A stretch of 63,901 nucleotides of DNA, counting the filler, from an uncultured Methanosarcinales archaeon (GTDB lineage Archaea > Nanobdellota > Nanobdellia > Woesearchaeales > CAYSVS01), in the NCBI GenBank assembly GCA_964434475.1. It is 3 parts of 3 records of this genome, joined end to end, with 100 filler letters (N's around TTAATTAATTAA, not from the genome) between each part and the next. Parts side by side here need not be neighbours in the genome. Positions count along the whole stretch, not along the records: positions 1 to 24,185 come from CAYSVS010000017.1; 2 more parts are not named here. One strand, 5' to 3'. Position 1 is the stretch's first letter, and the number at the start of each line of letters is the position of its first letter. Shown here piece by piece: positions 18,001-24,000 of the stretch. The position numbers are program-made.

Positions 18001-21000
18001 CACTCCATAAGGTTTAACGGTATAGTGTTAAAGAATGCATTCAAAGGAGAATACAATACCAATAACTGCATACCTATAGACAATACTACAGCCAAAACCA
18101 GCCAATTATTAGACAACATTTTAATATTATAGTCTGACCGTATCATATACAACCTGACAAATTCAAGAATAACCAATGTCGTAAAAACAATAGTCTGAGC
18201 TTTGACAAGATCAGCTTCATAATAGCGGTTAAACAGGAAAAGACTAGCCAAAGTCATCAATATGCTTATGATTATTATGTTTGCTGCTGTATTCTTTGTG
18301 ATTATGCCTTCCTCCTTCTTTCTTGGCTTTCTTTGCATTATATTAGGGCTAGCAGGGTCAAGTCCCAAAGCTAAAGCAGGCAGTCCGTCTGTTATCAGAT
18401 TTATCCACAATATCTGAATAGCGGTAATGGGCAACGGCAAGCCTATCAATATTGCGGTTAATATTACCATCACTTCGCCAAGATTTGATGAAAGCAAATA
18501 ATTGACAAACTTCCTAATATTATCAAATATTGTCCTGCCTTCGCTCATAGCATTTACTATAGATGCAAAATTATCATCAGTAAGCACCATATCGCTGGCT
18601 TCCTTGCTTACATCTGTTCCAGTAATACCCATAGCAACACCTATATCTGCTTTCTTCAATGCAGGCGCATCATTCACACCATCTCCAGTCATACCTACAA
18701 TATGGCCTTTTGACTTCAATGCTTCAAGTATCTTTACCTTATGTTTAGGATCTACTCTTGCATATACTGCAATCTCTTCAACATGTTTCTTCAGCTCTTT
18801 TTTGCTCATCTTCTCCAGTTCTGCACCTTCTATAGATTTGCCCTCTATGCCTAGCTGCTTGCCTATAGCCACAGCAGTTTTCTTATGATCTCCAGTGATC
18901 ATTATTACCTTTATACCTGCAGTATTGCATTTCTTGACAGCATCCTTTACTTCCTCTCTTGGCGGATCTATCATCGCCTGAAGACCAACAAAAACAAACT
19001 CCTTTTCCAAGTTTTTCTTGCTGTATTTCTTTCCTATTTTTTTATACGCAAAGCCTAAAACACGTAAAGCGTCATCAGCAAAGCCATCATTCTGTTTCAA
19101 GATCTCTTTTTGCTTGTCTTTTGTGAGTTTCTGTTCTTTTCCGTTTATCAAAATTTTAGTGCAAAGATCAAGTATGCCATCAGGCGCGCCTTTCATATAT
19201 GCTATATTACCTTTATCTGTAGAATGTATAGTAGTCATCCTTTTTCTTTCAGAAGTAAAACCCAGTTCATCCTTTCTTTTCTTCTGCTTATTTAATTTTA
19301 TAGAATTCATACCTGCTTTTCTTGCGCTTACTATCAATGCACCCTCTGTAGGATCGCCTGTAACTTCCCATTTCTTTTTTTCTTTCTTCAATTCAGAATC
19401 ATTGCATAATGCACCTATCTCAAGCAATGCACCTATATTTTTACTGTCAGAAAAATCACCTTCAGGCTTATAACCTTTGCCGCTTACTTCTACAACCTTA
19501 TCATTCACATACATCTTTGTGACTGTCATCTGATTATGTGTTAATGTGCCTGTCTTATCTGTGCATATTACAGTCGTAGCGCCCAGTGTTTCAACACTCG
19601 GCAATCTTCTTATAAGCGCATTCTTTTTTATCATCCTTCTAACGCCTAATGCCAAAGATATAGTAACTACAGCAGGCAGACCTTCAGGTATTGCAGCTAC
19701 AGCTAACGCTATCGAAAATATAAGCATCTCCTTAACTAAAGCAAAGTCTATGCCTTCAGTAAGATAGCCTCTTAACAAGCCTATGCCAAATATTAATATG
19801 CTTATTATGATTACCAATATAGTCAAGAGTTTTCCTAATTTTGCAAGCTTTTTCTGTAAAGGCGTCTTTTCTTTTTTAGATGCGCTGATCATTTCCGCGA
19901 TCTTTCCTGTTTCTGTTTTCATGCCAGTTCTTGTAACTACAGCTTTTGCTCTTCCTTTTGTTGTCACGGTTCCTGCAAAGACCATATTTAGCCTGTCTCC
20001 AACACCAAGGCCAGACTTTAATTTATCAGTTGTTTTCGCAACAGGGTTTGATTCGCCTGTCAAAGCAGCTTCCTGCGCTTCCAGTTCAGATTCTTCTATT
20101 ATCCTTGCATCTGCAGGCATCCTGTCACCTGTCTCTATCTTTATTATATCTCCAGGCACAATCTCTTCTGCATCTATGTCTTTTTCTTTGCCATCCCTTA
20201 TTACAGTGGCTTTAGGAGAACTTAATTCTCTTAATTTTTCTATGGCCTTCTCAGCTTTATATTCCTGGATAAATCCAAAGATAGCATTAAAGATTAATAT
20301 CACAAATATAATTATAGCATCAGTAAGCTCACTAATAGAAACACCGTTGTTGCTTTCGATGAATGCAACCACTATAGAAATTATCATCGCTGCGATCAAT
20401 ACCCACACCAAAGGGCTCATGAACTGCTGTGCAAAAATCTTCCATGGCGATATCTTATCCTTTTCTTCGAGCTTGTTTCTTCCGTATTCTTCAAGCCTTT
20501 TCTTTACTTCTTTCTCTGATAAACCTTTTTCTGTTGTTTCAAATTCCTTTAATACATCCTTACTATCCATATCATAATAGGTTTTCTTGTTTTCTTCATA
20601 ATCTTCCTTTGCTTCTTGTTTTTCTGATTTGTTTTTTGCTTCTTGTTTTTTATTTTTTTCTTCTCTTTTCTTTTTAATATCACTATCTTTATTATTTTCT
20701 TTATTTTCTGATTTTTTCTTTGACTTCTTATCTTCTTGTTTCTTTTTTTTATCCTTATCTTTATTCTTTTGTTTATTATTATATTTTTTCTTCTCTTTTT
20801 TCTTTTTATTTTTCTTAGCCATAGGAATCACATCTTTTTCATCTTTCTTATACCTTTCTCTGTTTCCATAATCACTTTTTTCATTATTTTTATCGCCAAT
20901 ACAGGATATTCGCCGATCGCTGTCTCTTCTGAAAGCATCAATATATCAGAGCCGTCCAGCACAGCATTTGCTATATCGCTTGCTTCAGATCTCTCAGGAA

Positions 21001-24000
21001 CCTTTGAATGCATTAAAGAAAGAAGCATCTCTGTTGCAGTTACAACTAACTTCTTTTTCTTATTGCATCTCTTGATTATCATCTTCTGTGCAAGAGGAAC
21101 CTTTTCAAAAGAGATGTTTTTCCCCAAATCACCTCTTGCAACCATTATTCCGTCGCTTTCTCTGATTAGAGCATCAATATTGTCTATACCTTTTTTTGTC
21201 TCTATTTTCGAGATTATTTTAATTTTTCTATTTCCAAACCTTGACCTTATTTTTCTTATCTGAGGAACAGTTTCTGCAAAAGAAACAGCAAGATAATCAA
21301 AATCCTGATCTTTAAGCCAGTCAAGAATATTTAAGCTCTTTATATCAAAGAGTATTTTGCATTTGCCTATCTTCTTTAGACTTTTTGTGATTTCAGTATA
21401 TTCTTCTATAGAACCGTACTTGGTGTTGATTCTTGCAATATCCATACCTGCTTTAATCATCTTTTTAAGAGTAGGATGATTCCTACTTGAAGGACCTATT
21501 GTCGCGATTATTTTTGTTTTCATTTAAAACATCCATATTTTCAGTATAACAGACACACCTATTATAATACTTATTATGCCCATAGTAACCCTTATCTTTT
21601 TTGGTTCTGATATCTTTACAGCATACACCGCCAAAGGCATAGATAAAAAACCACCTATAAGCAAAGACGCTATCAAAGACCAATTCAGACTATTGTTTTG
21701 CTGAAAAAACATATGACCCAGAACACCGATTATGCTTAACAATCCTTCTGTCAATTGAGTCATGCCTACGGCTCTTTTGCTTTTCACTCCAGATATTATC
21801 TGACCTCCTGACAGCACAGGCCCGAATCCGCCGCCTGTAATACCTTTGTTCAAAGCAGCAATTGATGCAAACACTGTAATCCTCTTAAAAGATATTTTTC
21901 TTTGTATCTTGAATTTTCTAAGTATTATTATTCCTATGGCTAAAGTAAGCAGCCCAATATAGATATCCAATAAATACTCAGGTATATTAACTGCTATGAA
22001 TGCTCCTACCAATATAGCCAAGATACCAAAGCCAAGAAAAATGCACAATATCTTTTTGTTTTCTTTTTTATAGAAATTAACATTCTTCATATTATGGTGC
22101 ATAATTCCAGCACTAAAGCTAAGAGCTGCGCTTGCGAACAGTACTGCAGGAACAACCTGCAAAGGCGGATAACCCAATAATAGCAATACTGGTGTCAAAG
22201 TACCGAAACCCATGCCAACTGCTGAATCAAAGAATTCCAATAAAAACGCAGCTATAATAACTGTTATGATTATTTCCGGAAACATAATACATTAACACCT
22301 CAATTTTTTAAAAACTTTCTCATTAATTAATATGTATAATATATAATGATTTTGTTTTTTTGAGATAAATTTGTTATACAAAATCCACATCACCGCAATC
22401 AAAAATAATATATTTAATCTTTATCTTTAGTATAAAAAAATAAGAGATGTGACAAAACATTTTAGGTTTCCATTCATTAAGATGAAATTCAGAATATTGT
22501 AAAATCTTTCACATAACATTTATAAATTAAAACTGTTTTTTTATATTCATGAATACTTTAAGCAGAACAATATCAGGCAGTGTAGCTATGTTACTAGGAT
22601 TGTATCTTTCAACCGTAGCGATATTATCTGATTTATGGTTATTGATTTATGGAATACCTATAATAGTAATAGGCATCTTTATATTTATCAATAAAGAAGA
22701 GGACAAGATAGAAAAGATAAAAACAGGAGGTAAGATATAATATGGCGGAAATAATAATCACAACAGGAAACGAAATTCCAGGCAAAAAAATAAGCAAGAT
22801 AATAAAAATTGCTAAAGGAAGCACAGTAAGAGCTAGAAATATAGGAAGAGATATAGGAGCAGGACTTAAGAATTTAATTGGAGGAGAAGTAAAGACATAT
22901 ACCAAAATGGCAGAACATGCAAGAGACGAAGCATATAACAGGATGGTAAATGAAGCTATAAACGCTGGAGCTGATGCAATAATAGGTGTAAGGTTTACAA
23001 CATCGATGATACAACAAGGAGCTTCTGAAATGCTTGCATACGGAACAGCAGTCAAGCTAAAATAAACATATTAAGATGTTAACTTTTTCATGTAAAAGGA
23101 TATCCAAAGAAGAGCTGATCAAATGCGCTTTTGAATTGAATAAGACAGAATATAATCTGCTGATGTTCTTATTGCAAAAAAGAGGAGAATATTCTATAAT
23201 AAATATCTCAAAACAGATGAAACTAGACAGGACAACCATACAGAAAGCAATAAAGAAACTTGTTGAAAAAGACCTAGCAAATAGAATACAAAATAATATA
23301 TCTAAAGGAGGATATACTTTCTTATATACTATAAACAATAAAGAAGAGATAAAAAATAAGATCAAGGAAACCATACGAAGATGGTCTAAAGCAGTTGAAG
23401 AGGTCATCAACAACATATGATTTTATTTCTTATTTAACCTCAAAATAAATCCTACCAGAACTACTAAAAACGCTATAGAAACAAAAATAATCTGATAATA
23501 AAAAGGCACAATTCCCAGATAAGCAATCATGAATGTAAAAGGTATCAAACCCAATAATGTTGCAAGAGTGTAAGTTTTCAGGCTCATCTTACTGAACAAT
23601 CCCATCAGATAACTAATGCCATCGATAGGTATGACCATCCTGAGAAAAACAAGCGTTAGAAATATATGTTCTTGCGGAATCTTTTGTTCAACATAATATA
23701 TCTTCTTTAAAGGCAAAACCTTCTTTACCAAAGCAATACCATATTTTCTTGCTAATAGGAATGCTATGATCGCTCCCAAAGTCCAACCTATAGTCCCTAA
23801 TATTCCTGTGATAAACCAACCCCATATATTTGAACCTAATGGAAATAAAGGAACAGAACTTATTGGAGCAAAAATGATAGACAATGCTACGATCAAAATG
23901 AACAAGAGCATACCCGATAAACCTAAATCAATATGCTGCCTAAAAAAAGTAAGATTGCTTTGGATCAAATATGAAAATAAGACAAATAAGGAAATTATCG

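What a model noticed while it worked through the whole genome (the two positions that open the first line are those of the whole stretch)
20828..21523. Half-size pyruvate kinase made only of the catalytic barrel
The genome's only pyruvate kinase is 231 aa: it lacks both the B (lid) domain and the C (allosteric) domain yet keeps the catalytic residues. It belongs to a large conserved family of about 229-aa proteins in DPANN archaea and CPR bacteria, with an invariant Lys in place of the K+-binding Ser of the NFSHG motif.
Evidence so far: Pfam PK matches positions 3-55 and 182-328 only; one PK match in the genome. 1753 proteins at E<=1e-40; the best 120 listed are mostly 224-250 aa at 59-81% identity, named from Woesearchaeota, Pacearchaeota, Patescibacteria. 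R31, N33, K35, D60, K106, E108, G131, D132, T164, S198, E200 invariant in 36 sequences. Model pLDDT 94 superposes on PK A domains, TM 0.92, rmsd 1.3-1.4 A. All PDB relatives are 447 aa or longer. Searches calls 45, 46, 50, 51, 209 found no report.
(Added by a program. Inside this text positions count along the whole contig: they may not be those of the stretch shown here. "Call 12" and the like, gene names such as g00115 and contig names such as C1 are that model's own, and its searches are not shown. The text may have been shortened before it was handed on; [...] marks where a part breaks off. The agent that wrote the report below was given it as the finding of a first reader that could run no searches.)

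Follow-up and report, generated by a model that had tools for sequence, protein, structure and literature searches.

The report
Natural lidless, barrel-only pyruvate kinase
Tiny-genome archaea and bacteria carry a half-size pyruvate kinase that has lost both its moving lid and its regulatory domain but kept its catalytic core, so it is probably a stripped-down, unregulated ATP-making enzyme, though nobody has assayed it.

Summary
Confirmed. Window 20828-21523 (-) encodes an intact 231-aa pyruvate kinase (PK) A-barrel with about 96 lid residues excised and no C domain. It is the genome's only PK; no separate B or C gene was found. Catalytic residues are invariant in 132 of 132 close relatives. 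The short form occurs in 29 Nanobdellota/Patescibacteria genomes; 3 of 29 have a second PK, 28 of 29 have enolase.

Corrections: PDB holds a 321-residue PK (8iw2). Lys35 is not universal among barrel-only forms and also marks a large full-length CPR PK clade, where it co-occurs with Glu117 and never Lys117, suggesting an unreported route to K+-independence.

New: lidless PKs form a graded series (lid cut with hinge kept, A+C, A-only) and probably arose more than once. Neighbours include P-type ATPases, glucan phosphorylase and PPDK.

Best reading (0.6): a slow, unregulated, K+-independent dimeric PK. The main gap is the lid's nucleotide contacts (R119, K206, D177), so a changed acceptor remains possible. 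Ten literature searches found no natural lidless PK; an engineered lidless E. coli PykF is published.

The parts
20828..21523 (-). Barrel-only pyruvate kinase, 231 aa (A domain; no B lid, no C domain)
21413..21433 (-). Residues 31-37: R31 (=R73 human PKM), N33 (=N75), K35 (=S77, the K+ ligand), Y36 (=H78, adenine pocket)
   Evidence: alignment to PKM; conservation; roles from PMC4374775 section 17 and PMC8835810 passages
21326..21346 (-). Residues 60-66: deletion junction. D60-I61-K62 (=D113, T114, K115) join directly to the helix that follows the lid; E118, R120 and K207 are absent
21200..21208 (-). K106 and E108 (=K270, E272)
   Evidence: catalytic roles recalled from established PK chemistry
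21128..21136 (-). R130-G131-D132 (=R294-G295-D296), alpha6' helix
   Evidence: PMC3467265 passage
21029..21034 (-). T164 and E165 (=T328, and Q329 changed to E; this position contacts the partner subunit's Arg)
   Evidence: PMC11957543 figure legend (TcoPYK Gln298/Arg311, same spacing)
20990..20992 (-). R178 (=R342), inter-subunit catalytic Arg; R in 116, K in 13, N in 3 of 132
   Evidence: PMC3467265 passage
20924..20932 (-). S198-E199-E200 (=S362, G363 changed to E, E364)
17910..20831 (-). Type IIA (SERCA-like) P-type ATPase, the genome's only match to a type II P-type ATPase profile; its longest ORF overlaps the PK stop by 4 nt; probably the same operon
21524..22285 (-). TauE/SafE membrane protein; its stop abuts the PK start
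17293..17874 (-). Stand-alone LigD 3'-phosphoesterase domain, downstream in the same gene run
16012..17286 (-). TreT-like glycosyltransferase (below the equivalog cut-off), downstream in the same gene run

Best explanation
It is a genuine but minimal pyruvate kinase: PEP + Mg-ADP (or another NDP) -> pyruvate + ATP, probably slow and with weak nucleotide affinity, not allosterically regulated and not K+-dependent. Shown: intact PK barrel with the PEP/Mg2+/proton-relay residues; clean loss of lid and C domain; no separate gene for either. Inferred: (a) PEP and Mg2+ bind as in any PK (R31, K106, E108, D132, T164). (b) The Lys35 side chain supplies the positive charge of K+, since it replaces the K+ ligand Ser76 and the hinge Lys/Glu117 is gone. 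(c) It works as an A-A' homodimer, because the partner's R178 is needed to order the alpha6' helix; E165 may fix that contact. (d) ADP is held only by A-domain residues (T8, P11, N33, Y36, S198-E199), so turnover is low. In the cell it gives fermentative DPANN/CPR organisms an unregulated PEP-to-ATP step beside PPS and PPDK. It is often encoded next to an ATP-consuming ion pump, glucan phosphorylase or PPDK.
For: Catalytic residues are invariant in 132 of 132 sequences at 59-81% identity. The fold is a PK barrel. It usually stands in place of a full PK: 0 of 11 short-form genomes in the order have a second PK against 97 of 290 others with any PK match (Fisher p 0.019; kin not independent), and 3 of 29 overall. 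Enolase is present in 28 of 29. The own genome has PGK, enolase, PFOR alpha, PPDK and PPS and no ATP synthase match. The gene lies 30-38 nt downstream of PPDK in 2 genomes of one genus. Lidless PKs that keep the C domain exist, including P0456, where the lid is excised and the hinge kept. [quoted passage not shown] K76 with E117 occurs in 93 of 95 parsed full-length CPR PKs and never with K117; Ser76 is a K+ ligand 5.1 A from Glu117 (PMC4374775).
Against: The lid residues R119, K206 and D177 contact the nucleotide, and the rabbit T120L mutant that cannot close its lid is nearly inactive (PMC8835810 passages). H78 is Y and G363 is E at the adenine/ribose site. The protein scores below the TIGR01064 cut-off (261.9 against 306.4). 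PPS or PPDK is present in 28 of 29 carriers, so PK is not needed for PEP-to-pyruvate flux. Enolase (279 of 301) and PFOR (202 of 301; 10 of 11 carriers, p 0.11) are common in the order and do not discriminate. In Patescibacteria 2 of 6 carriers have another PK. A barrel-only subclade lacks K35. Side-chain positions in the model could not be measured.
Confidence: 0.6

Rival explanations
1. A repurposed PEP/pyruvate enzyme: with the lid gone the PEP phosphoryl goes to another acceptor (water, a small molecule or a protein such as the neighbouring P-type ATPase), or the barrel acts as an oxaloacetate decarboxylase or enolase-type catalyst.
For: All PEP/Mg2+ residues are kept while the lid's nucleotide contacts are lost (PMC8835810). 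E165 plus E199 occur together in 117 of 117 close relatives but in 0 of 118 lidded K76 PKs and 2 of 104 other lidded PKs. PKs have oxaloacetate decarboxylase side activity (PMC8100219 passage). Lidless barrels are fused to an NTP transferase (L169) and a LOG/SLOG domain (P0367).
Against: E165 and E199 each occur in ordinary full-length PKs. The A-domain part of the nucleotide pocket (T8, P11, N33, aromatic 36, S198) is conserved. Near-exclusion with full PK fits replacement. No single conserved partner gene was found.
Confidence: 0.22
2. A non-catalytic PEP/Mg2+/cation sensor or scaffold that regulates a P-type ATPase or another transporter.
For: A P-type ATPase lies within 4 kb in 9 of 57 barrel-only loci against 2 of 119 full-length loci (p 0.0007, kin not independent). 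In whole genomes that have such an ATPase it is adjacent in 4 of 16 against 0 of 28. Three subclades and two ATPase subfamilies are involved.
Against: 48 of 57 loci show no ATPase (12 of them have only 1.5-kb flanks). The proton-relay residues T164, S198 and E200 are invariant, which a pure sensor would not need. The ATPase HMM was built from neighbours of short PKs.
Confidence: 0.1
3. One piece of a split PK whose lid or C domain is supplied in trans.
For: Split enzymes occur in reduced archaeal genomes (general knowledge, recalled).
Against: No PK_C match in the 97%-complete genome; no B- or C-domain ORF in the genome or in any of 44 barrel-only loci. The junction is short and well folded.
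Confidence: 0.05
4. A decaying pseudogene or an assembly artefact.
For: One relative (G258) has a further 40-aa in-frame deletion that removes D60.
Against: The same length and junction recur in 116 of 120 homologues, 29 genomes and many independent metagenomes; catalytic residues are invariant.
Confidence: 0.02

Closest known systems
Canonical pyruvate kinase (A+B+C; rabbit/human PKM, E. coli PykF, TIGR01064)
   Same: A-domain fold (TM 0.92), PEP/Mg2+ residues, inter-subunit Arg.
   Different: No B lid (R119, K206, D177, E/K117 lost), no C domain, so no C-C tetramer interface or effector site; S76 to K, H77 to Y, Q328 to E, G362 to E.
Archaeal full-length PKs with NTA[YH]G, D[IL]KGP and ATEML motifs (e.g. 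P0138, named Bathyarchaeia; Woesearchaeota PKs)
   Same: Share T34, Y36, the DIKG hinge start and E165 with the short family; sister group in the LG tree, weakly (81.5/65).
   Different: They have lid, C domain, Ala at 76 and Glu117.
Full-length Patescibacteria PK clade with NxK[HY] and DLQGPEIR (found here, P0241-P0360) and its lidless A+C and A-only offshoots
   Same: Lys at the Ser76 position; lid loss with Q328 to E in the offshoots.
   Different: Different hinge signature; whether it is the ancestor of this protein's family or convergent is unresolved (AU p 0.41; best tree under the mixture model).
Entamoeba histolytica PK (PDB 8iw2, 321 residues) and the 352-position PRK06739 family
   Same: Natural PKs short enough to lack the C domain (absence of C inferred from length and aligned range, paper not seen).
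   Different: They keep the lid; 21% identity for 8iw2.
Engineered lidless PKs: E. coli PykF (Sugrue et al. 2020, PMID 32978636, title only seen) and the 447-aa liver PK crystallisation construct (5sc8 series)
   Same: Lid removed; the title reports that catalysis persists. 5sc8 superposes at 1.5 A over 229 residues.
   Different: Laboratory constructs that keep the C domain and the K+ site. That 5sc8 lacks the B domain is recalled and fits its length.
K+-independent PKs (Lys117 type; crenarchaeal type without an internal charge)
   Same: K+ site partly dismantled; P. aerophilum PK has Ala at the Ser76 position (PMC4374775).
   Different: Here the basic residue is at position 76 in the barrel, not at 117 in the hinge; neither paper's passages mention Lys76.

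Membership tests
Pyruvate kinase (canonical) | PK barrel domain PF00224 above the curated cut-off | tested here: met
   212.4 bits against 30
Pyruvate kinase (canonical) | TIGR01064 equivalog cut-off | tested here: not met
   261.9 against 306.4
Pyruvate kinase (canonical) | PK-type (beta/alpha)8 A-domain fold | tested here: met
   Z 34.4, rmsd 1.9 A, 231 aligned to 2e28
Pyruvate kinase (canonical) | B (lid) domain with nucleotide contacts R119, K206, D177 | tested here: not met
   about 96 residues excised; no separate gene
Pyruvate kinase (canonical) | C (allosteric) domain PF02887 | tested here: not met
   0 matches in the genome
Pyruvate kinase (canonical) | PEP/Mg2+/proton-relay residues R73, K270, E272, G295, D296, T328, S362, E364 (human numbering) | tested here: met
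   132 of 132
Pyruvate kinase (canonical) | Inter-subunit Arg (R342) for the A-A' dimer | tested here: met
   R178 in this protein; R in 116 of 132; sequence only
Pyruvate kinase (canonical) | PEP + ADP -> pyruvate + ATP activity | not testable with these tools
   needs an assay
K+-dependent PK cluster | N74/S76/D112/T113 ligands and T113/K114/E117/T120 signature (rabbit numbering) | tested here: not met
   N and D kept; S to K, T to I; 117 and 120 deleted
K+-independent PK cluster (Lys117) | L113/Q114/K117 signature | tested here: not met
   I61, K62, position 117 deleted
HpcH/HpaI aldolase / citrate lyase beta | PF03328 above cut-off and closest fold | tested here: not met
   18.6 bits against 25; Z at most 18.8 against 34 for PK

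The most novel reading that the evidence does not exclude
Small-genome archaea and CPR bacteria have repeatedly reduced pyruvate kinase to a lone catalytic barrel that still makes ATP. A barrel-anchored Lys76 is an unreported route to K+-independence that uncouples catalysis from lid closure, and Gln328-to-Glu fixes the active dimer. The family would be the smallest natural PK and a ready series (full, lid cut with hinge kept, A+C, A only) for testing what the lid and K+ really do.
Probability: 0.35. Interest if true: 0.8.

Novelty: new variant of a known kind. Interest (0 to 1): 0.62.

Why it matters
PK is a textbook enzyme whose lid closure and K+ requirement are treated as central, and the role of K+ is still described as not completely understood (PMC4374775). 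A natural, conserved enzyme without the lid, plus a large clade with Lys in the K+ site, makes both questions directly testable with small, expressible proteins. It also affects metabolic reconstruction: these proteins fall below the TIGR01064 cut-off and several are named 'hypothetical protein', so PK counts in DPANN and CPR may be off. If it is not a kinase, it is a new PEP enzyme built on the PK barrel.

Tried and rejected
1. Dimer prediction: the tool's queue was full, so there is no verdict on the oligomer.
2. Expression: no RNA holder was listed.
3. The genome-contig scan used generic PK patterns: 78 of 80 loci were ordinary PKs, useful only as outgroups.
4. 'E165 and E199 are unique to the short form' was rejected; each occurs in full-length PKs. 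The metagenome loci were selected on both residues, so they were not used to count them.
5. 'Lys35 compensates for lid loss' was rejected as stated.
6. Ancestry: the first trees put the family with the CPR K76 clade, but that quick tree was a poor optimum (a constrained tree scored 35 units higher). Later searches left both origins open. A single origin of all lidless forms was not rejected under the mixture model (p 0.52 against the poor tree; p 0.09) and was rejected under LG+F+G4 (p 0.011, short constrained search). One full LG run did not finish.
7. Enolase, PFOR and PPS/PPDK co-occurrence do not discriminate.
8. RuBisCO at 26317 is on another contig.
9. The sigma-70 promoter scan does not apply to an archaeon.
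10. The ESM Atlas returned only automatically named PK clusters of 220-265 aa.
12. The SubstitutionOME supplement, which could hold mutant data at S77, Q329 and G363, was too large to read. The Sugrue 2020, Schormann 2019 and Morgan 2010 papers were not held.
13. P0185 was mislabelled as lidless by my parser and is full-length; P0209 has a partial lid. Both were left out of the later trees.
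Full report
Observation. The window is three contigs joined at N runs; the finding lies on C17 (window 1-24185) of a 1.5-Mb, 97%-complete genome. Homologue names and the Atlas taxa point to Woesearchaeota/Nanobdellota. The ORF 20828-21523 (-) gives an intact 231-aa protein with GC like its contig (0.34 against 0.33). PF00224 matches positions 3-55 and 182-328 in one frame and is the genome's only PK match. PK_C finds nothing. HMMs of the B and C domains built from 184 full-length PKs find no convincing separate gene in the genome or in 44 barrel-only loci. 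Against a 455-aa archaeal PK, about 96 residues are cleanly missing after D60-I61-K62. The AlphaFold model (pLDDT 94.7) superposes on PK A domains at TM 0.92 and Z 34, far above other barrels (Z at most 19.4).

Family and range. The best 120 homologues are 59-81% identical with median length 229 aa. Whole-genome scans found the short form in 11 of 301 genomes of the order, 12 further genomes in a 301-genome sample of the class and 6 of 401 Patescibacteria (one is the centre genome). It is therefore patchy, not universal. At 50% clustering the family is compact: among the best 150 representatives I inspected 14 lidless ones, 7 with no C domain and 7 with one. In 132 close relatives R31, N33, D60, K106, E108, R130, G131, D132, T164, E165, D183, S198, E199 and E200 never vary. 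Numbering comes from the HMMER alignment to human PKM. The K+, nucleotide and interface roles come from passages of PMC4374775, PMC8835810, PMC3467265 and PMC11957543; the roles of K270, E272, T328, S362 and E364 are recalled.

PDB 8iw2 (E. histolytica PK) has 321 residues, so a C-less PK is known and the new feature is the missing lid. Lys35 is not tied to the short form. A barrel-only subclade has Ala or Ser there (14 of 65); those that parsed have Lys or Arg at position 62 (11 of 11; one clade, so weak). A large full-length Patescibacteria clade has Lys at this position in 118 of 118 parsed sequences (2 of 120 unparsed). Its hinge has Leu113, Gln114 and Glu117 in 93 of 95 parsed hinges and never Lys117. 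Known K+-independent PKs have L113/Q114/K117 (PMC8835810); Ser76 is a K+ ligand 3.1 A from the ion and 5.1 A from Glu117 (PMC4374775, section 17). Lys76 with Glu117 therefore looks like the internal cation moved from hinge to barrel.

A graded series. A metagenome scan (120 loci, 80 with flanks, selected on E165 and E199) and the unselected representative search show every architecture: full-length, A+B, A+C and A only. Junctions differ by group and echo different full-length hinges. This family has DIKG, like the archaeal D[IL]KGPEIR/NTAYG/ATEML PKs. P0456 keeps the whole DLQGPEIR hinge of the K76 clade with the lid excised. A group that includes a Dehalococcoidales genome keeps a basic hinge remnant and the C domain. 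Trees on A-domain columns support this family as a clade (99.8/100) and a separate CPR K76 group of full, A+C and A-only forms (96.5/94; K35 and E165 columns removed). The family's sister is unresolved: archaeal PKs (81.5/65) or the K76 clade (AU p 0.41; best tree under the mixture model). One origin of all lidless forms is rejected under LG+F+G4 (p 0.011) but not under the mixture model (p 0.09). I read this as at least two, probably three or four, losses. Gln329-to-Glu tracks lid loss in the K76 group: Glu in 3 of 118 lidded forms against 12 of 12 lidless representatives. This residue is one of the contacts of the partner subunit's Arg at the A-A' interface (PMC11957543 legend), and that Arg is needed for activity in Leishmania PK (PMC3467265 passage). 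Whether Glu favours the active state is not known from the passages seen.

Genomic context. Here the gene sits in a tight run tauE - pk - type IIA P-type ATPase - ligD phosphoesterase - treT-like. A P-type ATPase lies within 4 kb in 9 of 57 barrel-only loci against 2 of 119 full-length loci. In whole genomes that have such an ATPase it is adjacent in 4 of 16 against 0 of 28, although 63 of 69 genomes have one. Alpha-glucan phosphorylase is near in 5 of the first 45 loci against 2 of 119 and in none of the 12 later, short-flank loci. PPDK is directly upstream in two genomes of one genus. Most loci have unrelated neighbours, so the links are tendencies. A second PK occurs in 3 of 29 carriers: none of 11 in the order, where 97 of 290 others have a PK match; G900 in the class; G692 and G302 in Patescibacteria. 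G945's second match is a 74-aa fragment at a contig end and was counted as the same gene. Enolase is present in 28 of 29 carriers and PPS or PPDK in 28 of 29, both near background where measured. The own genome has PGK, enolase, PFOR alpha, PPDK and PPS and no ATP synthase match. Order-wide tallies include up to ten genomes flagged unpublished; no other claim rests on them.

Mechanism. The best reading (0.6) is a slow, unregulated, K+-independent dimeric PK. [quoted passage not shown] Against it: lid residues R119, K206 and D177 bind the nucleotide, and a rabbit mutant that cannot close its lid is nearly inactive (PMC8835810); H78 and G363 are changed; alternative PEP enzymes are present. Rivals are a changed acceptor or a decarboxylase (0.22), a sensor or scaffold for an ion pump (0.10), a split enzyme (0.05) and decay (0.02).

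Known versus new. It descends from PK and probably works like one, but it fails the canonical three-domain definition, the TIGR01064 cut-off and both cation signatures, so I file it as a new variant. Ten full-text searches found no report of a natural lidless PK or of Lys76. A 2026 preprint on 208 Nanobdellota genomes (10.64898/2026.05.13.725050, passages seen) counts PK by KO and its passages do not mention a short form. The library lacks most subscription journals. Of the papers cited I saw passages of PMC8100219, PMC11957543, PMC5719368, PMC3467265, PMC10099687, PMC10176505 and PMC9252168, and passages plus one section each of PMC4374775 and PMC8835810. Databases already label some members 'pyruvate kinase' automatically, so the sequences are known but the architecture appears unremarked.

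Verdict. Real, conserved and unusual; function untested; interest 0.62.

Noticed in passing
L122:4722-7466, L123:3110-5851, L124:669-2921, L125:3714-5788: PK (A+B) fused to ATP sulfurylase and APS kinase (913-914 aa, one in the same genus as this genome), to ATP sulfurylase alone (750 aa), or directly upstream of it, beside glycosylation genes: possibly built-in ATP regeneration for PAPS synthesis. Further 739-919-aa PK ORFs appear.
   Followed up: partly
L131:1111-2526; P0241-P0360: Large full-length Patescibacteria PK clade with Lys at the K+-ligand Ser76 and L113/Q114/E117: a candidate new type of K+-independent PK.
   Followed up: partly
L003:142-1284; L166, L181, L191, L193, L233; P0233, P0235: A separate lidless PK group (about 380 aa) that keeps the C domain and a basic hinge remnant; one is the only PK match in a 3.3-Mb Dehalococcoidales genome.
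   Followed up: partly
L169:83-1522; P0367: Lidless PK barrels fused to an NTP-transferase domain (479 aa) and to a LOG/SLOG domain (448 aa).
   Followed up: no
L092:827-1402 (G258): Short PK with a further 40-aa in-frame deletion that removes D60; assembly error or decay.
   Followed up: no
L126:3056-5454 (G021): A 334-aa A+B PK directly upstream of a full-length PK; A+B forms of 340-360 aa are also common in Patescibacteria.
   Followed up: no
window 24186-24285 and 47084-47183: N runs join three separate contigs (C17, C18, C24); adjacency across them is artificial.
   Followed up: yes
window 26317-27591 (-): Form III RuBisCO (TIGR03326 above cut-off) on contig C18.
   Followed up: no
window 11208-22285 (-): Run of stress and ion-homeostasis genes around the PK: TrkH/TrkA, VIT1, acylphosphatase, TreT-like, stand-alone LigD phosphoesterase, P-type ATPase, TauE. 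Similar genes flank relatives (L113, L114), suggesting a shared island.
   Followed up: partly
window 20578-20831 (-): The P-type ATPase has a very Lys/Glu-rich low-complexity N-terminal extension of about 80 residues.
   Followed up: no
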